Source: Escherichia coli 042
GTDB lineage: Bacteria; Pseudomonadota; Gammaproteobacteria; Enterobacterales; Enterobacteriaceae
NCBI RefSeq assembly: GCF_000027125.1
Contig: NC_017626.1
Reading direction: 5' to 3' (one strand)
Length of the DNA stretch: 64,000 nucleotides
Part shown: in pieces, positions 37,551 through 60,854 of the stretch
Numbering within the stretch: position 1 is the first letter of the stretch
How the letters are laid out: each line of letters starts with the position of its first letter
The notes under the pieces: model-generated
Told to the model about the DNA's origin: nothing
The model's database searches: none
The model's input: only the letters and a program-made list of their open reading frames with translations
Made by a program: the position numbers and the translations under genes

Positions 37551-37647
37551 AAAATAATCTCGGTGTGAGATGCTTTACGTGTTCCAAGCCCCCTTCCTTG
37601 CCGTAAATGGAAAGATACATCTAATTATAGAATTTATATGTTTTACC

Positions 37648-38223
37648 CTACGGCAGTGCTGGCCATTCAATATCCTGTGCAGTTGACGTATCAACACGGT
37701 TCAGCAATACCCGATACTTTTTCCATGCTTCCAGCAACGAGATTTCTTCCTCCGTTGCAATTTCCAGATCTGCAGCATCCTGAAGCGGCGCAATATGCTC
37801 ACTGGCTACCTGCATCAGGTTGTTTTTTGTTTCTTCCGCCTCCCGGATCCGGAACAGTTTTTCTGCTTCCGTATCCTTCACCCAGGCTGTGCCGTTCCAC
37901 TTCTGAAACTCCCCTTCCGGCGATAACCAGGTAACATTTTCCGGTAACGGACCGAGTTCAGAAATAAATAACGCGTCGCCGGAAGCCACGTCATAGACGG
38001 TTTTTCCCCGATGATCTTCAACGAGATGCCACGATGCCTCATCACTGTTGAAAACAGCCACGAAGCCTGCCGGAATATCTGGCGGTGCAATATCGGTACT
38101 GTTTGCTGGCAGACCTGTATGAGGCGGAATATATGCGTCACCTTCACCAATAAATTCATTAGTTCCGGCCAGCAGATTATAAATTTTTATGGTCTGTGGT
38201 TGTTCACTCATTCTGAATGCCAT
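37648..38223 (-). CDS. tfaQ: Tail fibre assembly chaperone
   Basis: 191-aa ORF immediately downstream of stf, Tfa family. Confidence 0.88.
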
Positions 38224-41192
38224 TATGCAAGCCTCACAATATAGTTAAATGCGATGTTTTTGACGGTGTTTTCCGCGTTACCAGCAGCGTTAACGGTGAT
38301 GGTGTGTCCATGTGAACCAATCGCAACGGAGTGCGTATGAGCACCAATACCGACAGTATGTGCATGTGCGCCTGCGCTTGCAGCAGTGCCGGACAGCGAG
38401 TGGGTATGAGCACCATCTGATGATGTCTTCCCTGCATTACGAGTCTGGCCACTACCGCTTGTTGTGCTCATAATCCCCGCGCTTAGATTTGAAATCGCGG
38501 TATAACCATTAGGGAAAATGCTCGTGTTCGTGCCACCAAATGCACCGGAACTCTTGTGTTGGTGCGCACCGGCACTATTTGCAGTCCCGCTAATACTATG
38601 GGTATGCGCCCCGGTGTTATTCGTGGATTTGGTTCCGTAATCAAACGACGATGTGTTTTTCGTCCCCAAATCCGTACTGGATGCGCTGGCGCTGTGGGTG
38701 TGCGATTTAATGCCGTCCTGTTCCTGAGACAATACGGCACGACCACTGGCGGGTTTGCCCTTAATCGTCCAGCCACGCATATCAGGGATCACGCCTGACG
38801 GATAAGCGGCTGCAAGTTTCGGGTATGCAGATTTGTCAAAAGTCTGCCCCTGCATCAGGGCATAGCCAGACGGAACGGTATCTGATGGCCACGGGATTGG
38901 TGCGCCAGGCGGATAAAACTGCTCTGATGGCGTATAGAGTGAATAAACTGTACCGTCCGTTAACCCTTCCGGCTTATTAGCAGAATATGCTGGTGACGTA
39001 TGAATCGTCACGCTGGCATTACTGGTATAATCCCATTGAATATTTACACCAGTCGCATAATTTCCGATTGCAACGTAAATATCGTAAGTATCACCAGATG
39101 TATTGACCCAGGCAAAATTTGTAAACCCTGTCGATGTGCGCTGCCATAAAGCACCAGTAATCCCCTTCGGATTACCATTACCTGCACGCAAAACAAGTTC
39201 AGATATACCTGCCTGTTGAGGTGACCCCACGTTAAATCCCGCGCCACCAATCAACGTAATTGAAACAACAGAACTCGCCTGTGGCATGGTTACCGTTGCT
39301 AATTTGAACCAACCAGCACCACCGCTGAATGACATTGTTGTTGAGTTAAGCGTACCAATATCTTTCGGCGTCAGTGTTATATCCGCTGAAAGCGCCTTAC
39401 CATTCACCTTACGGGCAGAAGGTACCCGACCATTCGCATTATCATTAGCTGCTTTCACTGCTTTCGGTGTCGCGGCAAGCGTTTCAGATGCGCTGTTGGT
39501 TGCACTACTGAGCTGGACAATTCCTTTTTGTGCTGTCGTAGCGTTCTGAGCAGTATATTTCCCGTTAGCAAGGTCATAGGCTGCCTTTACCGACTTTGGC
39601 GTTGCCGCCAGCATTTCAGATGTGCTGTTGGTCGCGTTGCTAAGCTGAACTATCCCTTTCTGTGCTGTCGTTGCATCCTGTGCGGTGTATTTCCCGTTAG
39701 CCAGCTCATACGCGGCCTTAACGGCTTTTGGTGTTGCCGCCAGTGACTCGGAAGTGCTGTTAGTCGCACTGCTGAGCTGTACTATCCCCTTTTTCGTCGT
39801 GCTCGCATCCTCAAGCGCGACGGCGGATGCAATATCCTCTGCCCGTTTTGCCGCTGTCTCGGCGCGCGTTGCCGCGGATTCCGCCGTACTTTTGCTCTGA
39901 GCTGCCGCCGTCGCACTGCCAGCTGCCTCTGTCGCCTTCGTGGATGCCGTCGTGGCGCTGCCCTTTGCTGCTGACGCCTGTCTGGTCGCCTCATCTTTTG
40001 AAGCAGACGCAGATAATGCCGATGACGCCGCCGAACTGGCGGACGATGCGGCAGCCGTTTTTGAGGATTCTGCGCTGGTTTCCGACGCTTTCGCGTTCGT
40101 CTCGGATGTCTTCGCTGCGGAAGCAGACCTCGCTGCTGCGCTGGCCTGTACAGCGGCTTCGCCAGCCTTCGTTGTGGCTGTTGAAGCGGACGATGCAGCA
40201 CTTTCTGCCGATTTTCCGGCGGCGGTGGCACTGGCTGAGGCCTGCCCGGCATTTGTTGACGCGGCGCTGGCAGATGAGGCAGCCGCTGTTTTTGAGTCTG
40301 CTGCTGCGGAGGCACTCTGTGCTGCTGCCGTCTCAGAAGACTTAGCGTTCGTCTCGGACGTTTTTGCCGCCTTCGCGGAATTTCCTGCCGCTGTTGCCGA
40401 GGAGGCTGCACTACTGGCGCTCGAGGCTGCGCTCGTTTCTGATGATTTTGCCGCCTCTTTTGAGGCCGCCGCATCCCGGGCTGAGGTGGCAGCTTCTGAC
40501 GCCTTCGTGGTCGCGGCGGATGCAGAAGTGGCTGCTGATTGTTGTGACGCTGCCGCATTCGTTTCTGACGTTTTCGCGGCACTGGCACTGGTAGCTGCCG
40601 CGCTTTTTGAGGACTCTGCAGCGGCAGCACTTTTTGATGCTTCAGTAGCCTTTGTTGATGCCGTTCCTGCGCTGGAAGACGCTGACTGAGCCGACGTCGC
40701 GGCCTGCCCGGCTGATGTGCTGGCTGCACGTGCTGAGCCTGCAGCATCAGTCGCATGGGTTGCCGCCTCACGGGCTGATGTGCTGGCATCGCTGGCTGAC
40801 TTCTTCGCGGCTGCTGTGTTCTGCGCCACTGCGGACGCGTTACGCGCCACCTCTTCCACCATCAGTTCAAAACGGCGCAGTGCCTCAGGACGGGCATCAT
40901 CCTCCGTCATGGCACCGAGAAAATCATTCAGCGTACCGGGTCGGGAATCTTCATACACGGTGATGGTCCCGGCATGTGACGGCGGGAATCCTTCCACCAA
41001 CAGAATAACGCTGTACTGACCGTACTCAACGTCCATGCTGTAACGCCCGGCCTCATCCGGATTTTCTGAGGCCAGCGTGTTCACCACCACCGTGGTGCTG
41101 TTACGTTTTGCTTTCAGCTGGATTGTGCAGTTCTGTACCGGTTTTCCTGTGCCGTCTTTCAGTACACCTGAAATCTTTACTGCCATATTCAC
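38223..41192 (-). CDS. stf: Side tail fibre protein, full length
   Basis: 989-aa ORF: lambda Stf-like N-terminus ([19 protein letters not shown]...), long Ala/Ser/Thr-rich shaft, three tandem 41-aa repeats, His-rich tip (GAHxHS motifs), conserved end ...[18 protein letters not shown]. Confidence 0.88.
39410..39790 (-). repeat. Three tandem ~123-bp coding repeats within stf (approximate coordinates)
   Basis: Protein units [44 protein letters not shown] repeated three times; the DNA repeat is visible directly. Confidence 0.7.
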
Positions 41193-41250
41193 CCCACAAA
41201 AAAGCCCGCCTGAACAGGCGGGCTGTCATAACACTGTGTTACCTGGCTAA

Positions 41251-41850
41251 TCAGAACTTATAACCGACACCCACGATGAAACCGTCAGTGCGCCAGTCGC
41301 CACTGCCGGAGCCTTCATAAGCAATATCAATGGCCACGGATTCGGTCGGGTTAAACTGCACGCCAGCTCCCCACGCCAGAGACGTGTTGCTGTGGCGACC
41401 GTCATCACTTCCGGTCAGCACGTCGTGCGTTTTCCCCTTGTTGTCAGTTACGCGGAGATAATCCCCGGAGAAAGTCGACACACGGCTGTAAGCCACACCC
41501 GCCATCGCATACGCGCTGAACCATTCATTCACGCGCACAGACGGCCCCACCATCACGCTGAACCAGCGGTTACGCACGGAATCTTCATGCCAGCGGGTAT
41601 CGCTGTAACGGGTAAGCTGGCGATTCTTGTCTCCTGCATAGCTGAATGACGTCACCAGCCCCAGTGTGTCCGTAAACTCATAACGGTATTTCACGTTAAT
41701 CCCGTTAAGATCATCGCTGCCGGGAACGTTCGTCGAGGCATGAAGATACCCCGCGCTCAGCGTGGACTGATGTTCAGATGCCCATGCAGGCGCACCGGAT
41801 ACGGCCAGACAAATGGCTGCGGACAAAATGGCGGCATAAAGTTTACGCAT
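41251..41850 (-). CDS. lom: Outer membrane protein Lom (Ail/Lom/OmpX family)
   Basis: 199-aa ORF with signal peptide and beta-barrel pattern ending in a C-terminal Phe; lambda position between J and stf. Confidence 0.88.
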
Positions 41851-41919
41851 AATTACCTCTCGCTTTTCTGCAATAAAAAAGGCACCATTTCTGGTGCCCT
41901 TATATGGGTTATAACAATT

Positions 41920-44900
41920 TCAACGAATACTGATGCCGGAAGCGGCTTTTTTGGTCACAATCACCGTACAGTCGGTGATATTACCTGCCCACTGATTGCC
42001 TTTATGGAAAACCTTAAACTCCAGAGTGACGCTTCCCCTGCCACTCGGCATATCAATAACCGCACTGTAGCTACCGGGAATGGCCCCTTTAGTTTCTCTG
42101 GATGCGATTAATACACCGTTTTGGCGAACTTCAAAACCATAACCCGTGTATCTTGTACCTCCCGGGTTATTACCACTTCCCGGATCGCTATACGCTATTC
42201 CGTTAAAGATAATGGGCGGAATAATGATTTGACGGTCAAAGTTATGATCATCGCTTATGGTGACTGTAACCGTCCCGTTTGGTGTTTCCGTGTTACCCCA
42301 CGTACCAGCCTGTTTCGGAAATGATTTGGATACAGCTTTAACGAAATCCCCTCTGACCTGAGTCGCCTCCAGCATGCCCTTAATCGTACAGTTTTCATTT
42401 ACCGTGACATTGTTGAGCGTCCCGGCGTTCGCATTCACACTGCCACTGATATCCGCATTTTTAGCGGTCAGCTTTCCGTCTGATGTCAGGGAAAATACCG
42501 GTGGATTTCCACCGCTGGTAATGGTGGGGGCCGTCAGGCGCTTCAGGAACACGTCGTTCATGAATATCTGGTTGCCCTGCGCCACAAACATCGGCGTTTC
42601 ATTCCCGTTTGCCGGATCAATAAACGCGATACGATTGGCGGCAACCAGAAACTGGCTCAGTTTGCCTTCCTCTGTATCCTCCATGCTGAGGCCAATACCC
42701 GCGACATAATGTTTGCCGTCTTTGGTCTGCTCAATTTTGACGCCCCACATGGCATTCCACTTATCGTTAGCATCCTTCCACTCTTTCGAAAACTGCTCCA
42801 GTCTGCTGGCGTTATCCTCCGTCAGGTCGACTTTTTCCAGCAGCTCTTTACCGAGATGGGATTCGGTTATCAGGCCTTTGAAAAAATCCAGGTAACCTTC
42901 GGCATCATCGCTCGCCCGACCAACAGCCTCCACGAATGCCGATTTGCCAACGGTGTTCACACTGCGAACGTAAAAATAATAATTATGGCCCGGCCTGATA
43001 TTGATACTGGCGGCTATCCAGTACAGCGCCGTGCCAAGATAGCGTGCTGTGGTTTCAACCTGCCTGATATCCGCAATCCGCTTTTCCGAGAACCAGAACT
43101 CAAACTGTACCGTCGGGTCATAAACCGCAAGATGCGGCGTGGCGGTTATCTGAAAATAGCCCGGCGTCAGCTCAATCCGCGACGGCGCTGCCGGTGCGGC
43201 AATCCGGAACGATACCGACGCCGGATCGCCCTGCTGCTCCCACGCATTTACTGCCCGGACTGTCAGCCTGTAGTTCCCCAGAGCCAGTTGTGTGAAGCGG
43301 TAAGTGGTTTCCGTCGTCCGGGCCGTGCTGACCAGCCGCTCACTGCCGTCATCCGCTGCCACGGTCAGGCGAAGCATGAAACTCACGCCCTTCACCACCT
43401 TCGGCGTGTCCCAGCGGGCCAGTACCTGATACTCCCCGCTGTCTGCGGTGACTTCGGCAGTCAGGTGCTGCACTGCTGGCGGCGTGACACCATTCACCGT
43501 GCCGCTCTGGTCGCCGTCAAAGTGCGCCCCGTTATCCACGATAGCTTCTTTTTCCGGTACATGCTGCACGGCGGTGATGGCATACGTGCCGTCGTCGTTC
43601 TCACGGATACTCACGCAGCGGAACAGGCGCTGGCGCAGCGTCGGCAGCTTCAGCCCCCATACGCTGTATCCGGCAACGCCGTCAGGAACACGGCTCACTT
43701 TTACCTTCACGCCGTCGGTGACGGACTGGACCTCCACGCTGACCGGATTGCCACTTCCGTCAACCAGGCTTATCAGCGTGGTACCGGAGGATGGCAGCGT
43801 GATTTCACGGTCGAGCGTCAGCGTCCGGGTCTGGCTGTTCACCGCCAGCACGCGCCCGCCGGTGCTGATCCCCGCATAGTCATCATCGCAGATTTCAATG
43901 ACATCGCCCGGCACATGGCGAAGCCCTTCCGCACCCACGCTGAAGTCCACGGTCTGCGTTTCCAGTAGTTCCGTTTTAATCAGCCACAGCCCGGCGCGGT
44001 GCGCCTGCCCCCGGCTGGTACAGCCAAAGGCATCCATCTTCGTGACGTTACGACCGTAACGGAGAATGGCCTGCGTATCTTCAACAAGCTCTGTCGCCGT
44101 CTCCCAGCCGTTATCCGGGTCAATCCAGTTCACCTCAACGGCATTATGACGGTCCTTCAGGGCACTGAAGCTGTAGCGGAACGGCGCGCCATCATCCGGC
44201 ATCACCACATTACTGCGGTTATAGGTCCACACCTTATCCGACGGTCGGTCCTGCACGAACGTCAGCGTCTGCCCGTTCCATACCGGCATACAGCGCATCG
44301 CCGAGCAGAAATCACTGAGAACATCCCACGCCTTGCGCTGTGTGGTCAGGTAGGCATTACAGGTGATGCGCGGCTCCGTGCCACCAAAGCCATCCGGCAC
44401 CGACTGGTCGCAATTCTGGCCGATGACATACAGCGCCCATTTGTCCACATCCGCCGCACCGAGACGCTTCCCCATGCCGTAGCGCGGATGGGTCAGCATA
44501 TCCCACAGACACCAGGCCATGTTGTTGCTGTATGCTGGCTTAAACGTTCCGTCCCAGATACCGCTGTATTGCCGCGTCTGCGGGTTATAGTTCGACGGCA
44601 CCTGCAGAATGCGCCCGCGAAGATGATAATTACGGCTCACCTGCTGGCTGCCGAACTGTTCCGAGTCCACCTGCACGCCGACCAGTGCCGTGTTCGGGTA
44701 GCACTGTTTCACATCGATGATTTCGGTGTATGACGACCAGAGCGTTTTGTTCTGCAGCTGGTCTGTGGTGCTGTCCGGCGTCATCCTGCGCATCCGGATA
44801 TTAAACGGGCGCGGCGGCAGGTTACCCACCACCACCGAGGCCAGATACTGCGAGGTGGTTTTGCCCTTAATGGTGATGTCTTTTTCCGTCACCCAGCCAC

Positions 44901-45333
44901 CGTTACGCTGTATCTGAACCAGCAGACGGACTTCCGACGGATTCCTGTCACCCTTTGAGGTGGTTTCCACCAGTGCCTGTACACCGAAGGTAAAGCGCAG
45001 TCGGTCGATGTTTGCCGACGTGATGGCGCGGGTGATCGGCGTGTCGTATTTCACTTCCGTACCCAACACCGTCTCGGAGCCGGAGGATTCAAATCCCTCC
45101 GGCGGAGTCTGCTCCTGCTCACCAGCCCGGAACACCACCGTGACACCGGCGATGTTGGTATTCCCATCACTGTCCAGCACCGGCGTACTGTTCAGCAGCA
45201 CGCTTTTTAATCCATCCACCGGACCTTCAATCGGCCCTTCACTGATGGCATCAATCACACTCAGCAACTGCGTGGACTTCAGGTTGTCCTTCGCTTCGCG
45301 CGGGGTATGCCCCTTACTGCTTCCTTTACCCAT
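41920..45333 (-). CDS. J: Tail tip / host specificity protein J
   Basis: 1137-aa ORF, lambda J-like from [21 protein letters not shown]...; C-terminal region differs from what I remember of lambda J. Confidence 0.9.
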
Positions 45334-45393
45334 TCCTCACGCTCCATAAACGACAAAACCGCCCGCAGGCGGTTTCACATAAAACATTTTGCA

Positions 45394-46065
45394 TCAGCGA
45401 CCAATCACCACAACCTGACCACCGTCCCCTTCGTCTGCCGTGCTGATCTCCTGAGAAACCACGCGTGACCCCACGCGCATTTCCCCGTACAGAACAGGCA
45501 GAACATTGCCCTGGGCAACCATGTTATCCAGTGAGGAGAAATAGGTGTTCTGCTTACCGTTATCCGTTGTCTGTGTACGGGGAGTTCTGGCTTTCGGTGC
45601 CAGCATCTGCGCCACACCACCGAGCACCATACTGGCACCGAGAGAAAACAGGATGCCGGTCATACCACCGGCCCCAATGGCTGCCCCCCATGCTGCAAGG
45701 GTGGCTCCGGCGGTAAAGAATGATCCGGCAATGGCGGCAGCCCCCAGGACAATCTGGAATACGCCACCTGACTTGGCCCCGGCGACTCTGGGAACAATAT
45801 GAATCACAGCGCCATCAGGCAGAGTCTCATGTAACTGCGCCGTTAACCCGGACGTGCTGACGTCCCGCCCGGCAATCCGTACCTGATACCAGCCGTCGCT
45901 CAGTTTCTGACGAAACGCCGGGAGCTGTGTGGCCAGTGCCCGGATGGCTTCAGCCCCCGTTTTCACACGAAGGTCGATGCGGCGACCAAATCGTTGTAAA
46001 TCCCCGTAAAGGCAGATGCGCGCCATGCCCGGTGACGCCAGAGGGAGTGTGTGCGTCGCTGCCAT
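45394..46065 (-). CDS. I: Tail assembly protein I
   Basis: 223-aa ORF overlapping the 3' end of K by 103 nt, as in lambda. Confidence 0.88.
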   Translation of the reverse strand: MAATHTLPLASPGMARICLYGDLQRFGRRIDLRVKTGAEAIRALATQLPAFRQKLSDGWYQVRIAGRDVSTSGLTAQLHETLPDGAVIHIVPRVAGAKSGGVFQIVLGAAAIAGSFFTAGATLAAWGAAIGAGGMTGILFSLGASMVLGGVAQMLAPKARTPRTQTTDNGKQNTYFSSLDNMVAQGNVLPVLYGEMRVGSRVVSQEISTADEGDGGQVVVIGR

Positions 46066-46706
46066 TTGTCGGTGTACCTCTCTCGTTTGCTCAGTTGTTC
46101 AGGAATATGGTGCAGCAGCTCGCCGTCGCCGCAGTAAATTGCGGCGTGATTCGGCACCGATGAACCAAAACAGCACAGCAGCACATCGCCCGGCTGTGCC
46201 GCTGACAACGGCACCTGATACAGCCCCGTCGCCTCCAGATTATCCAGATAGAGATTCTGGCCGTTACGCCACCAGTCATCCTCACGATGAAAGTCCGGCA
46301 TCTCAATCCCCGCCAGATGATAAGCATCCCGGAACAGTGTGTAACAGTCCGTCACACCGTGCTCAAAGCGCCGCCCGGTGAGATGCGGCACACAGCGGAA
46401 CTTATGAATCGTCCCCCGGCAGACCAGCCACCACGGCAAATCACTCTGCACCTGCAGCCGCCGGTCGGCCTCACTCAGCCAGGGCAGACCACCGGGGTGG
46501 CTGTGGACCAGCGCCACAATCTCACCCTGCATTTCTGCCTGCAGCCAGTCTTCCGGCGACATACGGAAATACGCCTCCGGCTCACCGGAGATATTCACGC
46601 AGGGGAAATATCTTTCCCCCTCCGGCGTGCTTACCACGAAGCCGCACGACTCCGCTGGCGCACATCGCCGGGCGTGCGCCAGAATCGCTGATTCTGTCTG
46701 TGTCAT
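45963..46706 (-). CDS. K: Tail assembly protein K (MPN/JAB + NlpC/P60 peptidase)
   Basis: Full ORF is 247 aa; the 199-aa lambda-annotated K would start at the internal MSPEDWLQAE (46562). Confidence 0.85.
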   Translation of the reverse strand: MTQTESAILAHARRCAPAESCGFVVSTPEGERYFPCVNISGEPEAYFRMSPEDWLQAEMQGEIVALVHSHPGGLPWLSEADRRLQVQSDLPWWLVCRGTIHKFRCVPHLTGRRFEHGVTDCYTLFRDAYHLAGIEMPDFHREDDWWRNGQNLYLDNLEATGLYQVPLSAAQPGDVLLCCFGSSVPNHAAIYCGDGELLHHIPEQLSKRERYTDKWQRRTHSLWRHRAWRASAFTGIYNDLVAASTFV

Positions 46707-46711
46707 GGGAT

Positions 46712-47410
46712 TTACTGCGAAAGTTTGTTAATGGAAAGGAAGCCGCCAAAGTTGCCGACGTTATTGCGGAACTTACAACCGCTCAGGCATTTGCTGCATT
46801 TATCCTTCGTGATATCGGACGTTGGCTGGTCATATTCATCCGCGACAGCCGGACCGCTATAACCGCACTCGTCACCGCGATAGGTCCAGGTGCAGGTGTT
46901 GGCCAGCATGATACGTCCCGGAAAAACAGCGCCATCCGTTTCCGTCGGCGTGGACAGTACAAAGGAGGCACTCACCGCGCTCAGTTCGCTGCACTGCTCA
47001 ATGCGCCAGCGGCTGATCACCTCCTGCTCCGGATCGGCGCCACTGTTTCCGTTGACGAAGTTCACCGCATCCAGAAAACGGGCGTAAACCTTACGCCGGA
47101 CCACCGTTCCACCGACCAGACTCTGCAGATCTTCCGCCATCCCGGTGACCATACCGTACAGGTTAGAAACCGTCAGTGTGGGGCGCGTACTGGTGCCTTT
47201 GCCATTCAGTTCAAAACCACTCCCCTGAATGGGATACGGCTGATACTGTCGCCCCTGCCAGGTGACCGGCTCACCTTTTTCGTTCTGCTCATTACAGAAA
47301 AAATAACGTTCTCCACCGACCTCTGTCAGGTCGATTTCCCAGAGCACCACGCTGGCCGACTGCTCCGCACGGGTGCATTCATTCAGTGTTTCCTGCCGGA
47401 TATCCTGCAT
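46712..47410 (-). CDS. L: Minor tail protein L
   Basis: 232-aa ORF at the lambda L position with conserved Cys cluster. Confidence 0.88.
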   Translation of the reverse strand: MQDIRQETLNECTRAEQSASVVLWEIDLTEVGGERYFFCNEQNEKGEPVTWQGRQYQPYPIQGSGFELNGKGTSTRPTLTVSNLYGMVTGMAEDLQSLVGGTVVRRKVYARFLDAVNFVNGNSGADPEQEVISRWRIEQCSELSAVSASFVLSTPTETDGAVFPGRIMLANTCTWTYRGDECGYSGPAVADEYDQPTSDITKDKCSKCLSGCKFRNNVGNFGGFLSINKLSQ

Positions 47411-47739
47411 CAGTTCACCACCTGTTCAAACTCTGCGCTGAACTCAACACGCAGCATACTGACCCGCGACGACCATTTTGCGCAGGTCACCTTTATCTGC
47501 CGCCACTCATAAGGCGGCGTCCACAGAAAGGCTTTCCAGCCCCCGTGCTCAGCCAGAAACGACTCCAGCGCCGTGGCCTCCCAACGGGGAACAGAAAGCG
47601 TCACGCTGTACGTTTTCAGGTCGGCATTCAGCCCGGCAGGCGCTCGCTGGGAATAGCCATCACCAAAGCGCACTTTCCTGACGGAAGGGGCCGAAGCCAC
47701 ATCCATACCGGGTTTCACTTTCCAGCGGAAGGTCTTCAT
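47410..47739 (-). CDS. M: Minor tail protein M
   Basis: 109-aa ORF with ATGA overlap with L. Confidence 0.88.
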   Translation of the reverse strand: MKTFRWKVKPGMDVASAPSVRKVRFGDGYSQRAPAGLNADLKTYSVTLSVPRWEATALESFLAEHGGWKAFLWTPPYEWRQIKVTCAKWSSRVSMLRVEFSAEFEQVVN

Positions 47740-50314
47740 CGTCCACCTCCGGAGAACAGACCACCATCGCGCATCTGTGCCTGAATTTCATCACGGGCAC
47801 CCTTGCGGGCCATGTCATACACTGCCTTCATCATCTGTGGACCTGGCAGACCATTCGTACCGTCGTTCTGAATCACCACGTGATTGTTCTGATTAAAATT
47901 AATGCCTTCAGCCCGCCGCATCTGCGCCGGACTTCCGGCACCGCCCACATAACCACCTTCCGCATAGCCCCGCATCAGGCGGTACAGGTTGCCGACACCA
48001 ATTCGGCTGGTTGCCTCCTTCGTGAAGACAAATTCACCACGGTGAACAATCCCCGCTGGCTCATATTTGCCGCCGGTTCCCGTAAATCCTCCGGTTGCAA
48101 AATGGAATTTCGCCGCAGCTGCCTGAATGGCTGTACCGCCTGATGCGGATGCGCCGCCACCAACAGCCCCGCCAATGGCGCTACCGATACTCCCGACAAT
48201 CCCCACCATTGCCTGCTTAAGCAGAATTTCTGTCATCATGGACAGCACGGAACGGGTGAAGCTGCGCCAGTTCTGCTCACTGCCGGTCAGCATCGCCGCC
48301 ATATTCTGCGCAATACCATCAAAGGTCTGCGTGGCTGCACTTTTAACCTGCGACATACTGTCCGTGGCGCTCTCTTCCCACTCACTCCAGCCGGACCTGA
48401 GGCCTGCCATCCAGCTCCCGCGAAGCTGGTCTTCAGCCGCCCAGGTCTTTTTCTGCTCTGACATGACGTTATTCAGCGCCAGCGAATTATCGCCATACTG
48501 TTCCTTCAGGCGCTGTTCTGTGGCTTCCCGCGCTGCCTGCCGGTCAGTAAGCCCCCGGTTTTTCGCCTCAATGGCTGCCCGTTTTGCCCGTTGTTGCTGT
48601 GCGAACTTATCCGCCTGCTGCGCCAGCGCGTTCAGGCGCTCCTGATACGTAACCTTGTCGCCAAGTGCAGCCAGCTGGCGTTTGTACTCCAGCGTCTCAT
48701 CTTTATGCGCCAGCAGGGATTTCTCCTGTGCGGACAGCTGGCGACGTTGCGCCGCCTCCTCCAGTACCGCGAACTGACTCTCCGCCTTCCACAAATCCCG
48801 GCGCTGCTGGCTGATTTTCTCATTTGCTCCGGCATGCTTCTCCAGCGTCCGGAGTTCAGCCTGAAGCGTCAGCAGGGCAGCATGAGCACTGTCTTCCTGA
48901 CGATCGCCCGCAGACACTTTCACGCCGGACTGTTTCGGCTTTTTCAGCGTCGCTTCATAATCCTTTTTCGCCGCCGCCATCAGCGTGTTGTAATCTGCCT
49001 GCAGGATTTTCCCGTCTTTCAGTGCCTTGTTCAGTTCTTCCTGACGGGCGGTATATTTCTCCAGCGGCGTCTGCAGGCGTTCGTAAGCCTTCTGCGCCTC
49101 TTCGGTATATTTCAGCCGTGATGCCTCAGACTCGGCCCAGTCCTTTGCTGCCATCTCTCTGGCCTTTTCAAGATCGGCCTGCAACGTGGCGGCTGAAAGC
49201 CCAAGTTGCGCATTCGCTCTGTCCTCCCATGCTCCCCGGAGATTGGCAAGAAATGCTGAGGTTTTACCGCGCCGGTGGCTTCGGCTCTGATACCACTGCC
49301 ATTTTTTGTCCGCCTCATCAAAAGCCTTTTCTGCTTTCTCCAGCATTCCCTGGGCAGTGTCCGGGCGACCAATATCCAGCACCGAATCCCACATGGATTT
49401 GAATGCCCGTGCTGTCCTGTCTGCCCAGGTCTCCAGCGTGCCCATGTTCTCTTTCAGGCGGCGGGTCTGGTCATCAAACCCTTTCGTTGCGGCCTCGTTC
49501 GCCGCCTGCAATGCCCCGGCCTCATCTCCGGAACGCTGCAACTGAGCAACATACGCAATCTGCTCCGCCGTCACGTTATGGAACTGACGTGCCATCGCTG
49601 TCAGTCCCGACGTCGGGTCTGTGGTCAGCTTCCCGAAGGCTTCAGCGACCTTGTCCACCTCCACGCCGGATGCAGAGGAGAAACGCGCCACACTCTGGCT
49701 GATCGCCTCAAACTGCTCACCACCACGCACACCGGCATTCACCAGCGCCGTCAGTGACTCGCTGGTCTGGTTAAACGTCAGCCCTGCCGCCTGCCCGGCT
49801 CTGGACAGGGCCAGAATACGATCTGCCGTCAGTCCCGCCTGATTGCCGGAAAGGACCAGCGTTTTGTTGAAATCGGACAGGGTTGAGTTGCCCTGATACC
49901 AGGCATACGCCAGCGCACCGGTCGCCACCGCCAGCGAGGTGGCCCCACCATCGGCAGGGTGATCGCACCGGCAAGCCCCCTGAACATGGGGATCATCCCG
50001 CCGAAGGAGTCCTTAACCTGACCACCCTGTTGCAGCAGGATCAGCCACGGACTTTGCCCGCCTGCAAGCTGCGTGGCCACGTCGGTGAACTGTGCAGGCA
50101 GCATACGCATGGCGGCTTTATACTGCCCGACGGAAATCCCCGCTTTCTGTGCAGCCAGCGCCTGTCGGCTCAGCGACTGTTCAACGACTGCCGCTGTTTT
50201 TTTCGCATCAGTTTCCGTACCGGAAAAATGACGCCTGACTCTGGCCATCTGCTCGTCAAATCTGGCCGCATCCAGACTCAAATCAACGACCAGATCGCCT
50301 ACCGGTTCAGCCAT
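47736..50314 (-). pseudogene. H: Tail tape measure protein H, interrupted by a -1 frameshift in a G-run (plus-strand CCCC 49943-49946)
   Basis: N-terminal 161-aa ORF (49829-50314, MAEPVGDLVVDLSLDAARFDEQ...) and C-terminal 730-aa ORF (47736-49928) lie in different frames and together reconstitute a lambda H-like protein (ends ...RDGGLFSGGGR). Confidence 0.8.
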
Positions 50315-50741
50315 ACCGGACTCCTCCTGCGATCCCTTCTGATACTGTCATCAGCATTACGTCATCCTCCGTCATGTCCGCCACATCCGGGGAAGCGGGG
50401 ATAACTTCATTCCCGTCCGGGCCAAAGCGGACACCTCCGGCAAGCCCTGCCGCTTTCTGCATCAGCACATCATCTTCAGGCTCTTCGTCAGCCTCGCGCC
50501 GGTTCAGCAGACTGAAATCCAGCGGATGCATATCCGGATCGCTGAAAAACAGGCTGAGTACGGTGTACGTCAGCCCGGAAAAGTGCATATCCAGCAGAAC
50601 ATCATGAAAATAATGGGTACTGTAAAAGCGGTGCCAGTCGGCATACTCCGTGGATGACATCCCGGCAAGCATGGCACGCCAGTCGGGTCGCCCCATCTCG
50701 CGCGCCAGTTTCAGGGCAAAACTCAGCTCACCGTCGAACAC
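50307..50741 (-). CDS. T: Tail assembly chaperone T frame, expressed as a G-T fusion by -1 frameshift
   Basis: 144-aa frame overlapping the 3' end of G with a slippery heptamer at the junction. Confidence 0.85.
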   Translation of the reverse strand: MFDGELSFALKLAREMGRPDWRAMLAGMSSTEYADWHRFYSTHYFHDVLLDMHFSGLTYTVLSLFFSDPDMHPLDFSLLNRREADEEPEDDVLMQKAAGLAGGVRFGPDGNEVIPASPDVADMTEDDVMLMTVSEGIAGGVRYG

Positions 50742-51145
50742 TTTCCCGCAGAAACAGGCTCTGCGGGCCCGGCGTCCTCTGTCTGTTCAGGGGCATTATT
50801 CACCACAAACTCATACATACCAGACAGCCGGTACACCACGTTTTCAGCATGAGAAATTGCCTCCGTGGGCCAGGTGGTAAGCACTTCCTGCTCAATCTGT
50901 TTAACGGCTTCATTCATGGACGGCATCTGCGTCTTCTGCGGATGGTTATGCCACAGGGACATCGCCACCAGAAACGCGCCGGTTCTGATGGCGTCTTCCA
51001 CAGTAAACTTCCGGTTGCTGTCTGACTCCGCCTGTTCTGCCTGCCGTTTCATCAGGGCGAGATGCTCAATGCGCTGCAGGGCTGACAGTTCAGAAAGCGT
51101 GACGGTCACACCGTTATGTTCAAATGATTCGGTTTTCAGGAACAT
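50723..51145 (-). CDS. G: Tail assembly chaperone G
   Basis: 140-aa ORF, lambda G-like (MFLKTESFEHNGVTVTLSEL...). Confidence 0.88.
   Translation of the reverse strand: MFLKTESFEHNGVTVTLSELSALQRIEHLALMKRQAEQAESDSNRKFTVEDAIRTGAFLVAMSLWHNHPQKTQMPSMNEAVKQIEQEVLTTWPTEAISHAENVVYRLSGMYEFVVNNAPEQTEDAGPAEPVSAGKCSTVS
50741..50747 (-). promoter_or_regulatory. Programmed -1 ribosomal frameshift site (G GGA AAG) for G-T
   Basis: Minus-strand GGGAAAG located 16 nt upstream of the G stop, at the start of the T frame. Confidence 0.8.
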
Positions 51146-51160
51146 CGCTGACTCTCCGGA

Positions 51161-51901
51161 TTAACTGGCGGTGACGGTAATTTCTGCAACCGCAGCAAAC
51201 TCACCATTACCGGATACAACCGGAATGTTGACCTTGCCTGCAGCAACGCCGTTCACGGTGATGGTCATACCACTGACCGACACGGTGGCTTTTGTTTTAT
51301 CCGCAGACACCGCACGAAAGCTCTTGTCGGTTACGCCCTCCGGCTGGAAGGCCACGGTCAGCGTGGTGCTCTGCCCTTTCACCACCGAGGTGCTGGCAGG
51401 CGTCACGGTCATGCCGGTTGCCGCTGTTACCGTGCTGCGATCTTCTGCCATCGACGGACGTCCCACATTGGTGACTTTCACCGTGCGGGTGATCACTTCC
51501 TTCGCCGTCACCGCCTTACCGATACTGCTCACCCAGCCACGGAACACATCGACCGTGCCGTTCGGGAAGCGGATTTTATAGACACGGGTATCGCCTTCAT
51601 TAAACCACGCCAGCAGCGCCTGCTGCCCCTGCTCTCCGGGCATCCACGCCAGCGTGAAGCTGGTATCTCCGGCGGATTTCTGCCCCTGCCCGGTCGCAGT
51701 CCAGTCTGCATCTTCATCATCGAGATAGCTGTCGTCATAGGACTCAGCGGTCAGTTCGCCGGGCGTCAGGTCTTTAACTTTTGCCAGACGCGACCAGTCA
51801 ACGTCTGAAAGCGGATTCGCATAAGGGTCACCGCTCCCCTTATAAACCCACAGGGTGGTCCCGGCACCTTTCACCGGCATTGTAGGATTTGGTACAGGCA
51901 T
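51161..51901 (-). CDS. V: Major tail tube protein V
   Basis: 246 aa from [22 protein letters not shown]...; C-terminal Ig-like domain. Confidence 0.9.
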
Positions 51902-51908
51902 AGCGTCC

Positions 51909-52304
51909 TCACATTTCATAGGTAATGACATAAGTCAGATCGGCTGAACTCCACAGGCCCGCATCATCGTCGCGCCGGTAGTCATAGCCGCTGGCCACCA
52001 TACTGGTGATCAAATCTGACAGTGCCGGGATATCGCTCATCACCGGATAAATCCGGGACTCCATCCACGCATCCAGCTCTGAATCCGGCACCTGAGCAGG
52101 CAGGAAAACTTCGATATGCAGCTCCGCCTGCCAGGTATCGCTGTCCAGCTCTTCGCCCGTGTATTCAGCGCCGGTGAGATAAACGGCAACTGCCGGAAAA
52201 TCCGCCTCATCAAAAACAGCGGGGCGACCATCAAAAAACGTCGCCCCGGTGTCATGCTTCTCCAGTGCATCCAGTACGGCTGCACGGAGTTCAGTATGTT
52301 TCAT
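51909..52304 (-). CDS. U: Tail terminator protein U
   Basis: 131-aa ORF in lambda order. Confidence 0.88.
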
Positions 52305-52879
52305 CGCTTTATTACCATCCTCAGTTGATGCTGCAGCGCATAGCCCAGCTCTTTCGGAAGACGTTCACGCCGTATCCGCTCAATATTTTGTTTAAACGCC
52401 GTGGTCAGCGGCACCGCCATCGGGATTTTCACCACATCAATGGGGTAACGGTTTTTCCCGGCCACACGCTGCATGACATGCCACCGGCCATTTTTCAGTT
52501 GCTGAATAAACGCGCCGGGAATACGACGGTTACCCACCACAAGCACGCTGCCGCCACCTTTCAGGGCTGAACGTTGCCCCTTTTTACGACGCCTGCGGCG
52601 CGAAAGGACAACCCGCGCATTACCCAGCTTGATTACGGGCAAATCCCCCCGGTTAACTTTGATTCTGGCCTGCGGATTTTTGACCGTGGCCCTTTTCAGC
52701 CTGGCCCTTTCCTTTACCAGTTTCCGGCGTACCTTTGTCTCACGGGCAACCTGTGACGCCGACTGCGATATCGCGGATGAAGCAACGCGGTTAATGGCCA
52801 TTGCGGCGGCACCAGGCACCGCCGTTTTGCTGATACGGCTGAGGTTTTCAACGGCCTGCTCAAGACCTTTTATGGCCAT
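52301..52879 (-). CDS. Z: Tail completion protein Z
   Basis: 192-aa ORF in lambda order. Confidence 0.85.
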   Translation of the reverse strand: MAIKGLEQAVENLSRISKTAVPGAAAMAINRVASSAISQSASQVARETKVRRKLVKERARLKRATVKNPQARIKVNRGDLPVIKLGNARVVLSRRRRRKKGQRSALKGGGSVLVVGNRRIPGAFIQQLKNGRWHVMQRVAGKNRYPIDVVKIPMAVPLTTAFKQNIERIRRERLPKELGYALQHQLRMVIKR

Positions 52880-52890
52880 ACATCCCCCTT

Positions 52891-53244
52891 TCAGCGGCGA
52901 CGGTTAACGGCAGGCGGTACGCCCCGTCCAAGCCAGAGATGACAACTTCCGCCATCATCCGGCGAAACCCGATCTACCCAGAAATTTTCCTCACCGATGG
53001 TCAGCGTGTCTCCACGCCGCAGCTGCCGCACCTCATCAGTCCGGACAAACAGGGACGGGCTGGAGCCTTCAACGCGCACGCCCTGTCCGGCATAGCTGAT
53101 ATTTTCAGGGTCATCAAAAACACCACGTATCACCGCACCTGACTGCTCACCGGATGTCATGGTGGCTGACGTTCCCATGTACCCGCGTATCGTTTCATCG
53201 GCGCGGGCAATGGCAGCATCGAACAGGTTATCGAAATCAGCCAC
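52891..53244 (-). CDS. FII: Head-tail connector protein FII
   Basis: 117-aa ORF in lambda order. Confidence 0.85.
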   Translation of the reverse strand: MADFDNLFDAAIARADETIRGYMGTSATMTSGEQSGAVIRGVFDDPENISYAGQGVRVEGSSPSLFVRTDEVRQLRRGDTLTIGEENFWVDRVSPDDGGSCHLWLGRGVPPAVNRRR

Positions 53245-53255
53245 AGCGCCTCCCG

Positions 53256-53654
53256 TTATTGCATTCTGGCCAGGCCGCGCTCTGTCATTTCGGCTGCCAC
53301 ACCGGCAGAGACACGAAACGCCGTTCCCGGCAGCACAAATGCCACAGGTTCATCCCGCGTGACGTGAAGTGCATCAGTATGCAGCTTCACCAGTGCCACG
53401 ACCGTGACCAGTTCAGACGTATCCAGAATCACGGTATCCGGCTGCGCTGATCCCACCTCATTTTCATGTCCGGTCAGCACATTTTCCCGGCTGAGAGGGG
53501 TGTCCTGACCGGCAGTTTCATCCGTGTCATCAAGCTCCTCTTCCAGCTCTGCCACACGGAGCGCCAGTTCTTCTTTCGTCCCCGTCAGGCTGACATCACG
53601 GTTCAGTTGTTCACCCAGCGAGCGGAGACGGGCAATCAGTTCATCTTTCGTCAT
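53256..53654 (-). CDS. FI: DNA packaging protein FI
   Basis: 132 aa from MTKDELIARLRSLGEQ... Confidence 0.85.
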   Translation of the reverse strand: MTKDELIARLRSLGEQLNRDVSLTGTKEELALRVAELEEELDDTDETAGQDTPLSRENVLTGHENEVGSAQPDTVILDTSELVTVVALVKLHTDALHVTRDEPVAFVLPGTAFRVSAGVAAEMTERGLARMQ

Positions 53655-53695
53655 GGACTCCTCCACAGAGAAACAATGGCCCCGAAGGGCCATGA

Positions 53696-54721
53696 TTACG
53701 CCAGTTGTACGGACACGAACTCATCAGGGTCAGCCAGCAGCATCAGCGGTGCTGACTGAATCATGGTGAACTCACGCGCCGGATCGCCGGTGGTCACCCA
53801 GTTTTTCGGGTAACGGGCAGAGGCGTTAATGCCTTCGCGCTGTGCGTCCGCATCCTGAATGCAGCCATAGGTGCGCAGACCGCGTGCCTGAGTGTTACCC
53901 AGCACCATCGTGTTGTCCGGCAGGAAGTTCTTTTTGACGCCGTTTTCCACGTACTGTCCGGAATACACGACGATGGCCACATCGCCATACATTCCCTTAT
54001 AAGACACCGCTTTGCCCAGGTCTTTTACCGCTGTCTCCAGCTCGGAATGAGAGCCGCGACGGGTATCCAGCTTCTCCTTGACGGCTTTGAAGGAACGGAA
54101 CAGCGCCCAGCCTTTCGGATCGAACACGATGATATTCACCACACCGCTGGCATTCAGCGCGTAGGCTTCGATATCGTCGGTCGGGTCATACGTGGACTTG
54201 TCGCGCTTGCTCCACTCCGTGCCGCCGGACTGCGTGATGTTATTCTCCTCACTGCGGCCCATATCCACCTCAACCGGATCGAAGGCTTCACCGGTCATGG
54301 TGTATTTGCCCTTAAGCACGGCAGAAACTGCCTGCATCTCTTCGACCTGAGCAATGGCCAGCTCTTCGTCACGCATGTTCTGCATGATGATGCGACGGCG
54401 GCGGTAAGCCGGGTCCGCCAGATTCTGCGGATCTTCATCCGGCAGGCGACGCAGGGTCATCTGCGGATTCACTTCATGCTTCGGCTTGACATATCCCGGC
54501 GTAAATTCAGAGGTGGAGCCGCCACGGGAACGGATAACCTCACCGGAAACAATCGGCGAAACGTACAGCGCCATGTTTACCAGTCCCGGAATTTGTGAGA
54601 GATAGACTTTCTCCGTGGTGAAGGGATAGCTCTCACGGAAAAAGAGACGCAGAAACAGCGGATCAAACTTAAATTTCTGCTCATTTGCCGCCAGCAGTTG
54701 GGCGGTTGTGTACATCGACAT
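53696..54721 (-). CDS. E: Major capsid protein E (HK97 fold)
   Basis: 341 aa from MSMYTTAQLLAANEQKFKFDP... Confidence 0.92.
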   Translation of the reverse strand: MSMYTTAQLLAANEQKFKFDPLFLRLFFRESYPFTTEKVYLSQIPGLVNMALYVSPIVSGEVIRSRGGSTSEFTPGYVKPKHEVNPQMTLRRLPDEDPQNLADPAYRRRRIIMQNMRDEELAIAQVEEMQAVSAVLKGKYTMTGEAFDPVEVDMGRSEENNITQSGGTEWSKRDKSTYDPTDDIEAYALNASGVVNIIVFDPKGWALFRSFKAVKEKLDTRRGSHSELETAVKDLGKAVSYKGMYGDVAIVVYSGQYVENGVKKNFLPDNTMVLGNTQARGLRTYGCIQDADAQREGINASARYPKNWVTTGDPAREFTMIQSAPLMLLADPDEFVSVQLA

Positions 54722-54776
54722 AAAAAAATCCCGTAAAAAAAGCCGCACAGGCGGCCTTTAGTGATGAAGGGTAAAG

Positions 54777-55109
54777 TTAAACGATGCTGATTGCCGTTCC
54801 GGCAAACGCGGTCCGTTTTTTCGTCTCGTCGCTGGCAGCCTCCGGCCAGAGCACATCCTCATAACGGAACGTGCCGGACTTGTAGAACGTCAGCGTGGTG
54901 CTGGTCTGGTCAGCAGCAACCGCAAGAATGCCAACGGCAGCACCGTCGGTGGTGCCATCCCACGCAACCAGCTTACGGCTGGAGGTGTCCAGCATCAGCG
55001 GGGTCATTGCAGGCGCTTTCGCACTCAATCCGCCGGGCGCGGTTGCGGTATGAGCCGGGTCACTGTTGCCCAGCGGCTGGTAATGGGTAAAGGTTTCTTT
55101 GCTCGTCAT
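54777..55109 (-). CDS. D: Head decoration protein D
   Basis: 110 aa from [12 protein letters not shown]... Confidence 0.9.
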
Positions 55110-55118
55110 AAACATCCC

Positions 55119-56418
55119 TTACACTGGTGTGTTCAGCAAATCGTTAACGGCATCAGATGCCGGGTTACCTGCAGCCAGCGGTGCCGGTGCCCCCTGCATC
55201 AGACGATCCAGCGCAGTGTCACTGCGCGCCTGTGCACTCTGTGGTGCTGCGGCCAGAATGCGGCGGGCCGTTTCCACGGTCATACCGGGGGTTTCTGCCA
55301 GCACGCGTGCCTGTTCTTCGCGTCCGTGAGCCTCCTCACAGTTGAGGATCCCCATAATGCGGCTGTTTTCTGCCGCAACCGCTGCGGTGATCTGCGCGTT
55401 CACGTCCGGCTGCGCAGCGCTGGCGTTCTCGCCCTCCGTCGCTTGCACCACGCCAGTAACGTCAGCCTGCGAAGCAGTGGCTGAAACAGTTGTTGATTGA
55501 GTCTCTTTGGTCATTCGCCCTCCTGAGAGACGGGATTTACGTGCATCCAGTGCATCACGCATGACGGTGATCGCATCGGTACTGTTAACAAGTTCATCAG
55601 CCAGTCCGGCATCAATGGCCTCCTGACCGCTGTACACTGCAGCCTCGGTATCCAGCACAGCCTGCACGGACAGGCCGGTATATGCCGACACCTTCTGTGC
55701 AAACATCCGGCGGGTTGCATCCATCCGGGACTGCAGTGTTTCCCGGACATCATCCGGTAGATGGCTGTAGGGGTTGCCATCCACCTTATGGCTGCCGCTG
55801 TAAATCAGCGTGATTTCCACGCCCTGTTTCTCCAGCGCAGCACCGTAATTACTGTGAGCCATCATGACGCCGATGGAGCCTGTCCGGGCGGTCTGCGTGA
55901 CCAGACGTCGGGAGGCGGCGCTGGCAAGCAACTGACCTGCACTGCAGTTCATGTCGTTGGCCAGCGCCCATACCGGCTTTATGTCACGCACACGGGCGAT
56001 GATGTCAGCGCAGTCAAATGCCCCTGCCACCATCCCGCCTGGCGTATCCATATCGAGCAGAATGCCGTCCACCATCGGGTCGCTGGCAGCCTGTTGCAGA
56101 CGGGCGATAATGCCGTTGTAACCGGTCATCCCCGAATACGGCTGCAGCGCTCGCGTCCGACTGACCAGCGTGCCGGACACCGGCAGCACGGCGATGCCGT
56201 TCATGACCTGATAACTGCGGGCCTGTCGTGGTCCGTCATCATCAACGGATAACGCCAGCGCCGCGGGTGCCTCTCCGGCAGTCAGGCTGTCGCCGGATAC
56301 CGCATCCGTCAGGCGGCTGATCCCAAGCTGGCCTGCAAGCGCACAAAAGAAAACCCGCGCATAGGCGGGTTCAAGCATCAGCGGCTCATTAAAGGCCATA
56401 CTGGCAATATGCGGGAGA

Positions 56419-56438
<20 letters not shown>
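55119..56438 (-). CDS. C: Prohead protease/scaffold C (with embedded Nu3 scaffold frame)
   Basis: S49 peptidase-like; 439 aa if started at the GTG before TAELRNLPHIASM; overlaps the 3' end of B. Confidence 0.85.
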
Positions 56439-58219
<1,781 letters not shown>

Positions 58220-58223
<4 letters not shown>

Positions 58224-60842: not shown

Positions 60843-60854
60843 AGGTCGCCGCCC
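60843..60854. other. cos cohesive-end site (cosN 12-nt GGGCGGCGACCT on the minus strand)
   Basis: Plus strand aggtcgccgccc lies about 180 bp upstream of the Nu1 start, with a cosB-like region between them; this matches lambda cos. Confidence 0.8.

What the first reader, a model, noticed from the sequence alone, without database searches (positions are those of the whole stretch)
49900..49960. Tape measure gene H is split by a single-base deletion in a G-run
The N-terminal 161-aa ORF and the C-terminal 730-aa ORF overlap in different frames, and the N-terminal frame ends in Arg/Trp-rich out-of-frame sequence (…LPMVGPPRWRWRPVRW…). Reading the minus strand, ccg atg gtg ggg c|ca cct: one more G would give …PMVGATSLAVATGALAYAW… and a continuous 853-aa lambda H-like protein. 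H is essential for tail assembly, so as given the prophage cannot make tails. A homopolymer sequencing error would look identical.
Basis: seen in the sequence. Interest (0 to 1): 0.55.

Follow-up and report, generated by a model that had tools for sequence, protein, structure and literature searches.

The report
Frameshifted tape measure gene in Qin prophage
A lambda-like prophage in an E. coli chromosome has lost one G from a run of five in its tail tape measure gene; the loss is real and inherited by a whole clone of strains, and it is an ordinary step in the decay of an old resident prophage.

Summary
On the minus strand a 161-aa ORF (49829..50314) and a 730-aa ORF (47736..49928) overlap by 100 nt in different frames, and the switch is at a G4 run (plus 49943-49946). 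Adding one G gives a single ORF of 859 aa, not 853. That repaired protein is an exact match to a common E. coli tape measure protein (WP_000840337.1, on at least 1000 contigs). The gene differs from an intact copy in strain GF43 only by this G and two substitutions.

It is very unlikely to be a sequencing error. The same G4 allele, on DNA 99.7-100% identical, appears in at least ten other assemblies: two PacBio NCTC genomes, SPAdes and draft assemblies, and Logan contigs from several runs. The ones that extend far enough show the same ydfJ insertion site.

G4 is rare otherwise: 3 of about 6,700 copies in 5,426 complete genomes, and none in isolated phages or IMG/VR contigs.

The element is a full-length relative of the cryptic prophage Qin. 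All other lambda head and tail genes in the window are intact, but a 108-bp deletion has removed the start of the Rz-type spanin gene.

This is ordinary pseudogenisation. Loss of tail assembly is inferred, not tested. Interest is low.

The parts
49943..49946 (-). G4 run, the site of the one-base deletion (G5 in intact alleles). The frame changes after codon 124 (Gly) of H.
   Evidence: single gap column against the intact GF43 H; frame switch between 49937 and 49946.
49829..50314 (-). 5' fragment of tape measure gene H: a 161-aa ORF with 124 native residues plus 37 out-of-frame residues, ending at TGA. Deposited elsewhere as GHL05210.1 'hypothetical protein'.
   Evidence: (Pfam TMP_2 hit on the product).
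47736..49942 (-). Remainder of H in its original frame. It has no internal stops. The mechanical 730-aa ORF starts at GTG 49928 with no obvious Shine-Dalgarno sequence. It contains the lambda-type C-terminal tape measure domain.
   Evidence: TIGR01541, 423 bits against a cut-off of 104.75; upstream 25 nt CGATGGTGGGGCCACCTCGCTGGCG; deposited as VED35681.1.
50307..51145 (-). Tail assembly chaperone genes G (50723..51145) and T (50307..50741), both 100% identical in protein to lambda. The lambda programmed -1 slippery heptamer GGGAAAG is at 50741-50747.
47410..47739 (-). Gene M (109 aa), immediately downstream of H and overlapping its stop. It is intact.
36200..64000 (.). Visible part of a full-length Qin-family lambdoid prophage inserted at the 5' end of ydfJ (truncated ydfJ at 34340..35623). 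Gene order: ynfT, ydfK, pinQ, tfa, stf, lom, J, I, K, L, M, H, T, G, V, U, Z, FII, FI, E, D, C, B, W, A, Nu1, ynfO, ydfO, gnsB, ynfN, cspI, Rz/Rz1, lysozyme. It runs off the window end.
   Evidence: PMC6379469 for Qin at ydfJ.
63722..63723 (.). Junction of a 108-bp deletion relative to IAI1. It removes codons 1-33 of the Rz-type i-spanin gene (rzpQ) and the last 2 codons plus stop of the lysozyme gene (rrrQ). This is a second lesion of the prophage.

Best explanation
The tape measure gene H of a full-length Qin-family lambdoid prophage at the ydfJ site of E. coli has truly lost one G from a G5 run (codons 124-125, GGG GCC), most likely by replication slippage. The mutation is fixed in a clonal lineage of strains. 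Ribosomes read 124 native residues, then 37 out-of-frame residues, and stop. The remaining 734 codons of H lack a credible start site, so essentially no full-length tape measure protein is made. The break lies inside the hydrophobic segment at residues 116-140. In lambda, H is needed to start and measure the tail tube, so this prophage should be unable to build tails by itself. The sequence facts, the derived state of the allele and its inheritance are shown. The loss of tail assembly is inferred. It is one lesion among several that different lineages have collected in this old resident prophage.
For: Anatomy. Derived allele: the repaired 859-aa protein is exactly a known protein seen on at least 1000 contigs. 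The DNA differs from the intact GF43 H by a 1-G gap plus 2 substitutions. G5 is found in essentially all 6,739 copies in complete genomes, in all matching isolated phages and in 27 IMG/VR loci, against 0 for G4. Real rather than error: the exact 161-aa product is on 6 contigs and the exact 730-aa product on 36 contigs in 73 blocks. L008-L011 (Logan, 100%), L013 (99.99%), L012 (SPAdes node, coverage 148, 99.68%), L043, L044 and L045 (two of them NCTC PacBio genomes, at least 99.93% over 23 kb including the ydfJ-dcp host flank) all carry G4. The window's host genes have no frameshifts against a 98.8% identical genome. Not programmed: no unusual RNA structure downstream (z = -0.23), and no relative keeps the two-frame layout. 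Context of decay: all 24 other lambda morphogenesis proteins are intact, but there is a 108-bp deletion of the Rz start. The collinear IAI1 copy has an intact H but a frameshifted L and early-region pseudogenes, and K-12-type Qin remnants have lost the whole structural block. Role of gpH: it determines tail length, forms the core of the tube and binds the G/GT chaperones (PMC10721106, PMC5009743); hydrophobic segment 116-140 (PMC12617516).
Against: No reads were examined, so support for G4 rests on agreement between independent assemblies. No expression or particle data exist. G_GGG is a minimal -1 shift-prone tetranucleotide (Z_ZZN, PMC5009743). A backward slip of tRNA-Gly would recreate exactly the wild-type sequence V-G-A-T, so trace amounts of full-length H cannot be excluded. 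Tails could also be supplied by another lambdoid prophage in the same cell; complete genomes that carry this segment have a median of 2 copies. The rest of H shows no further decay, so the lesion is young or the lineage too shallow to show it.
Confidence: 0.86

Rival explanations
1. Homopolymer sequencing or assembly error: the true genome has G5 and an intact 859-aa H.
For: The same G4 does arise as an artefact or in poor assemblies. ESBL 15 has nearly every tail gene annotated as frameshifted. SCU-313 pairs G4 with an extra T 30 nt upstream. The NCTC PacBio assemblies of this lineage have other broken genes such as J and dcp.
Against: At least ten other assemblies from different platforms and projects, on 99.7-100% identical DNA, agree on G4. 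Short-read assemblies rarely miscount a 4-5 base run. The window has no frameshift in 29 kb of host genes or in the 24 other phage genes.
Confidence: 0.03
2. Leaky correction: a low level of -1 ribosomal slippage (or transcriptional slippage) on GUG_GGG_C restores wild-type H in amounts that matter, so the phage still makes some tails.
For: G_GGG fits the minimal Z_ZZN -1 shift site, and re-pairing in the -1 frame is perfect. The product would be identical to the wild type. The HSV thymidine kinase G-run indel is a precedent for a low-level compensated indel (PMC5009743). Few H copies are needed per tail, three to six (PMC10721106, PMC12617516).
Against: There is no stimulatory structure and no Shine-Dalgarno-like element upstream in the sequence. 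G4 is absent from 148 isolated phages with this H family and from IMG/VR. All lineage members checked sit at one chromosomal site on near-identical host DNA, which is what vertical inheritance predicts. A four-base run is too short for appreciable transcriptional slippage (general knowledge).
Confidence: 0.06
3. The two ORFs work as a split tape measure, or the 730-aa ORF alone works as a shorter one that gives shorter tails.
For: The downstream frame is open for its whole length and keeps the C-terminal lambda tape measure domain. In-frame deletions of H are known to give shorter tails (textbook lambda genetics, from memory).
Against: The GTG at 49928 has no ribosome-binding site. The site where another G4 allele (L006) has an ATG just after the upstream stop is ATT here. 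The split removes residues 1-129 and cuts the hydrophobic segment 116-140. No relative has such an arrangement.
Confidence: 0.02
4. Phase-variable switch: the G run acts as a contingency tract that turns tail production on and off.
For: G5 to G4 has happened more than once. It occurs on backgrounds 3-4% divergent from the window (L006, L007, Z1323HEC0475).
Against: A 4-5 base tract is far shorter than known contingency tracts. G4 is found in about 0.04% of copies in complete genomes. Every lineage member checked has G4, with no mixture. H has nine other runs of at least 5 bases, including an A7.
Confidence: 0.02

Closest known systems
Bacteriophage lambda gene H (tail length tape measure protein, NP_040595.1, 853 aa)
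   Same: Same position between T and M. The N-terminal 126 residues are 97.6% identical and the rest 87% identical. It has the same TIGR01541 C-terminal domain and the same G/T chaperone genes with the GGGAAAG slip site upstream.
   Different: The reading frame is broken after codon 124. The central segment differs from lambda's, and the intact form is 859 aa rather than 853.
WP_000840337.1 / UPI0002A21584, the intact 859-aa E. coli prophage tape measure protein (for example in strain GF43, NZ_CP172127.1)
   Same: The repaired translation is identical residue for residue. The DNA is identical except for 2 substitutions.
   Different: GF43 has G5 and the window has G4.
Qin cryptic prophage of E. 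coli K-12, and its full-length relatives at ydfJ-rspB such as the one in IAI1
   Same: Same insertion at the 5' end of ydfJ, with ydfJ truncated to 427 codons. Same accessory genes: ydfK, pinQ, tfaQ, nohA, ynfO, ydfO, gnsB, ynfN, cspI, rzpQ, rrrQ. It is collinear with IAI1 at 97-98.4% identity (PMC6379469).
   Different: K-12 Qin has lost the whole head and tail block (compare L051 and L052). IAI1 has an intact H but a frameshifted L. This lineage has an intact L but a frameshifted H and a truncated rzpQ.
Programmed -1 frameshift of lambda G-T
   Same: Two overlapping frames in a tail assembly gene cluster.
   Different: G-T has a conserved slippery heptamer and is kept in all relatives. The H split has neither, and it is a rare derived state.

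Membership tests
Lambda-family tail tape measure protein (TIGR01541 / PF09718 with PF06791) | C-terminal tape_meas_lam_C domain | tested here: met
   423 bits against a curated cut-off of 104.75, in both the 730-aa ORF and the repaired 859-aa protein.
Lambda-family tail tape measure protein (TIGR01541 / PF09718 with PF06791) | N-terminal TMP_2 region and position between T and M | tested here: met
   precomputed PF06791 hits on both fragments; synteny, and residues 1-126 at 97.6% identity to lambda H.
Lambda-family tail tape measure protein (TIGR01541 / PF09718 with PF06791) | One continuous reading frame encoding the whole ruler | tested here: not met
   the frame switches at 49937-49946. The locus is a pseudogene of this family, not a functional member.
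Qin-type prophage | Insertion at the 5' end of ydfJ with the N-terminus of ydfJ lost | tested here: met
   Searches (427-aa ydfJ ORF at 34340..35623; annotated 'missing N-terminus' in SW070912), PMC6379469 (28 codons lost).
Qin-type prophage | Characteristic gene set: ydfK, pinQ, tfaQ, nohA, ynfO, ydfO, gnsB, cspI, rzpQ, rrrQ | tested here: met
   all present at 97-100% protein identity to the IAI1 copies. rzpQ is only partial. The early region (dicA/dicB, int) lies outside the window.
Programmed ribosomal frameshift site | Two-frame arrangement conserved among relatives | tested here: not met
   relatives are single-frame (G5). G4 occurs in 3 of about 6,700 copies, and in no isolated phage or IMG/VR contig.
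Programmed ribosomal frameshift site | Slippery heptamer X_XXY_YYZ plus a stimulatory element | tested here: not met
   The sequence G_GUG_GGG is not a heptamer motif; it contains only the minimal G_GGG tetranucleotide. The downstream fold has z = -0.23.
Phase-variable contingency tract | Long repeat tract with mixed lengths within a clone | tested here: not met
   The tract is only 4-5 bases. All 10 lineage assemblies have G4. Variation within a culture cannot be tested here.

The most novel reading that the evidence does not exclude
The G4 allele is a tolerated or even favoured 'savior' indel. It nearly abolishes tail production by a resident prophage, while rare -1 slippage of tRNA-Gly on G_GGG recreates wild-type H. 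In that case the prophage stays a very low-output but still transmissible phage rather than a dead one.
Probability: 0.04. Interest if true: 0.45.

Novelty: already known. Interest (0 to 1): 0.1.

Why it matters
It matters little beyond annotation. The locus should be labelled a frameshifted tape measure pseudogene in a Qin-family prophage, not two genes; GenBank holds the fragments as a 'hypothetical protein' and a 'putative tape measure protein'. It is a clean example of how different E. coli lineages disable the same resident prophage in different ways: an H frameshift here, an L frameshift in IAI1, and loss of the whole structural block in K-12. The G4 allele could serve as a marker for this clone.

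Tried and rejected
1. I scanned genome contigs (one genome per species) for the exact G4 41-mer and found 0 hits, so it gave no help on the source.

2. I scanned viral contigs and the INPHARED phages for G4 and found none. The G5 control gave 27 IMG/VR loci.

3. I looked for a stimulatory RNA structure downstream of the G run. The fold is no better than shuffles, so a programmed frameshift was rejected.

4. I looked for a compensating indel like the one in SCU-313. The window has none; the frames never rejoin.

5. I tried to read Xu, Hendrix and Duda 2014 (PMC3907469) for the role of the H N-terminus, but it is not held.

6. I tried to extend beyond the window's right end with the ydfO protein. 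That protein is ubiquitous (6,350 blocks), so the look-up returned other strains. It was useful for context but did not show this lineage's early region.

8. The host strain and sequence type of the lineage were not identified. No complete RefSeq genome in the collection searched carries G4 on this haplotype; the three G4 genomes found are on divergent DNA. The best full-length match to the prophage segment is 98.7% identical.

Full report
**Observation.** On the minus strand the window reads ...atc acc ctg ccg atg gtg ggg cca cct cgc tgg..., with a G4 run at plus 49943-49946. The mechanical ORF list gives a 161-aa ORF at 49829..50314 and a 730-aa ORF at 47736..49928. Both are on the minus strand, in different frames, and overlap by 100 nt.

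The 161-aa ORF ends ...ITLPMVGPPRWRWRPVRW...RRD. The 730-aa ORF starts at GTG and begins MATGALAYAW. A tblastn of the 25 lambda proteins from Nu1 to Tfa places H residues 1-126 in frame -1 (50314..49937) and residues 124-853 in frame -3 (49946..47739). Every other protein maps full length in a single frame at 94-100% identity (J 88%; Lom and Stf are mosaic).

Inserting one G in the run gives a single ORF of 859 aa that reads ...PMVGATSLAVATGALAYAW....

**Which state is ancestral.** The repaired 859-aa protein is not hypothetical.

Aligned with the GF43 gene, the window's H differs by one gap column in the G run and two substitutions over 2,580 columns. The repaired translation matches GF43's protein exactly, so both substitutions are silent.

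- The surrounding 131 bp occurs 6,739 times in 3,701 of 5,426 complete E. coli genomes. The best matches are all 131/132, which is G5.
- A 41-mer that can only seed on the G4 form finds three genomes, plus one unrelated rearrangement.
- None of the 50,697 isolated-phage records carries G4, although 148 of them hold this H family.
- No IMG/VR contig carries G4, against 27 with G5.

G5 is therefore ancestral, and G4 is a rare derived deletion.

**Real mutation or sequencing error.** The three complete genomes with G4 show that such errors do occur:

- ESBL 15 has nearly every tail gene marked as frameshifted.
- SCU-313 couples G4 with an extra T 30 nt upstream.
- Only Z1323HEC0475 looks like a clean, isolated H frameshift.

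For the window's own haplotype the evidence points the other way. The exact 161-aa product is on record (GHL05210.1) on six contigs. The exact 730-aa product (VED35681.1) is on 36 contigs in 73 index blocks.

| Loci | Source | Identity to window | G run |
|---|---|---|---|
| L008-L011 | Logan contigs from four runs | 100% | G4 |
| L013 | Draft assembly GCA_918361235.1 | 99.99% over 10.2 kb | G4 |
| L012 | SPAdes node, coverage 148 | 99.68% | G4 |
| L043, L044, L045 | GCA_049816985.1 and two NCTC PacBio chromosomes (LR134238.1, LR134246.1) | at least 99.93% over 23 kb | G4 |

The 23-kb stretch of L043-L045 includes the ydfJ-to-dcp host flank.

The window itself looks like a clean assembly. Across 29 kb of host genes compared with a 98.8% identical genome, the only indels are single bases outside the large host genes, at 20716/20721, 26625 and 36831. 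Agreement of independent platforms on near-identical DNA at one chromosomal site means the deletion is real and inherited within a clone.

**Recurrence.** Two further contigs give the identical 161-aa product but lie on prophage backgrounds only 96-97% identical to the window. They are L006 from SRR10286122 and L007 from strain ECZU21. Both have SNPs within 42-130 bp of the run.

Together with Z1323HEC0475, this suggests that the same G5 run has lost a base more than once, or that a short tract has moved by recombination. That is unremarkable. The gene has ten homopolymer runs of five or more bases, three of them G5, and very many copies have been sequenced.

**What the element is.** The prophage abuts a ydfJ gene truncated to 427 codons. 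Its visible gene order is ynfT, ydfK, pinQ, tfa, stf, lom, J...Nu1, ynfO, ydfO, gnsB, ynfN, cspI, Rz/Rz1 and lysozyme.

This is the insertion site and accessory gene set of the cryptic prophage Qin (PMC6379469). Qin is reported in 48% of 638 Escherichia and Shigella strains, with sizes from 11 to 97 kb across 189 strains.

The window is collinear at 97-98.4% identity with the roughly 49-kb copy in strain IAI1, between ydfJ and rspB. That copy has an intact 859-aa H but a frameshifted L, an IS fragment and several early-region pseudogenes.

K-12-type copies have lost everything between Nu1 and the tail-fibre genes (L051 and L052). The window also lacks 108 bp present in IAI1, at window 63722/63723. 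This removes codons 1-33 of the Rz-type spanin gene, along with the last two codons and the stop of the lysozyme gene.

H is therefore the only broken gene in the head and tail block, but it is not the only lesion in the visible prophage.

**Likely consequence (inferred).** Translation yields 124 native residues plus 37 out-of-frame residues. The remaining H frame has no credible start. The GTG at 49928 is preceded by CGATGGTGGGGCCACCTCGCTGGCG, which has no Shine-Dalgarno match. At the position where the L006 allele has an ATG just after the upstream stop, the window has ATT.

The break falls inside the hydrophobic stretch at residues 116-140, which has been proposed as a membrane-spanning segment (PMC12617516). 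In lambda, gpH forms the core around which gpV polymerises. It sets the tail length, its C-terminus sits in the tip complex, and it is bound by the G and GT chaperones (PMC10721106, PMC5009743). Without a continuous H protein the prophage should make no tails by itself.

**Alternatives considered.**

- **Programmed frameshift.** This is excluded by the lack of conservation, the lack of a slippery heptamer, and a downstream fold no better than shuffles (z = -0.23). The true lambda G-T slip site GGGAAAG is conserved about 800 nt upstream of the break, at 50741-50747.
- **Adventitious -1 slippage.** G_GGG fits the minimal Z_ZZN shift site, and a backward slip would recreate the wild-type sequence exactly (PMC5009743). 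Trace amounts of full-length H cannot be excluded. However, G4 is absent from isolated phages and viromes, and all lineage members checked sit at one chromosomal site. Both facts argue for vertical inheritance of a dead gene.
- **Phase variation.** This is rejected because the tract is short and every lineage member has G4.
- **A working split or shortened ruler.** This is rejected because there is no start site and the N-terminal 129 residues would be missing.

**Verdict.** This is a real single-base deletion that created a tape measure pseudogene in a Qin-family resident prophage, and it is fixed in one E. coli clone. It is a textbook kind of event in a well-known element, and both fragments are already in public databases. 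The interest is low.

Noticed in passing
window 63722-63723 (compare L056 29447-29554): A 108-bp deletion relative to IAI1 removes the first 33 codons of the Rz-type i-spanin gene rzpQ, along with the last two codons and the stop of the lysozyme gene rrrQ. The embedded Rz1-like lipoprotein ORF (63379..63651) is intact. This is a second lesion in the prophage.
   Followed up: partly
window 50741-50747 (-): The lambda G-T programmed -1 slippery heptamer GGGAAAG is conserved exactly at the G/T junction. G and T are 100% identical in protein to lambda.
   Followed up: yes
window 36200-64000; L056 (IAI1); L051, L052: The prophage is a full-length relative of cryptic prophage Qin, with a complete lambda-type head and tail block. 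K-12-type copies have Nu1 (nohA) joined almost directly to tail-fibre remnants. IAI1 keeps the block but has a frameshifted L. Different lineages have disabled the same prophage in different ways.
   Followed up: partly
L002 (SCU-313, NZ_CP051694.1) 2970-3020: This complete genome has the same G4 plus an extra T 30 nt upstream (GGGGCTTTGCC). Its tape measure gene is therefore annotated as intact, with a roughly 10-residue out-of-frame patch. This is either a true compensating pair or two assembly errors.
   Followed up: partly
L006 (SRR10286122) and L007 (ECZU21, BNFO01000001.1): These contigs have the identical 161-aa frameshift product on prophage backgrounds only 96-97% identical to the window, with SNPs 42-130 bp from the run. 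This points to recurrent loss of a G at the same run, or to short-tract recombination. L007 also has split Z and K genes.
   Followed up: partly
window 36960-37550 (+), next to tfa 37648-38223 and stf 38223-41186 (-): A PinQ-type serine invertase gene lies beside the tail-fibre genes. A 2025 paper (PMC12529663) links PinQ-driven inversion in Qin to phage T2 resistance. I did not check whether an invertible segment is present here.
   Followed up: no
window 26625: An A8 run here is A9 in strain SW070912. It lies in the mgtS/mgtT region, inside the small annotated mgtT CDS of that strain. Apart from the indels at 20716/20721 and 36831, this is the only indel in the host part of the window.
   Followed up: no
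L044, L045 (NCTC LR134238.1, LR134246.1): The two NCTC PacBio assemblies of this lineage have many extra broken genes (J, dcp, ydfI, pinQ, tfa) that are intact in the window and in short-read assemblies. These are probably assembly errors, and may explain why these genomes are missing from the complete-genome collection searched.
   Followed up: no
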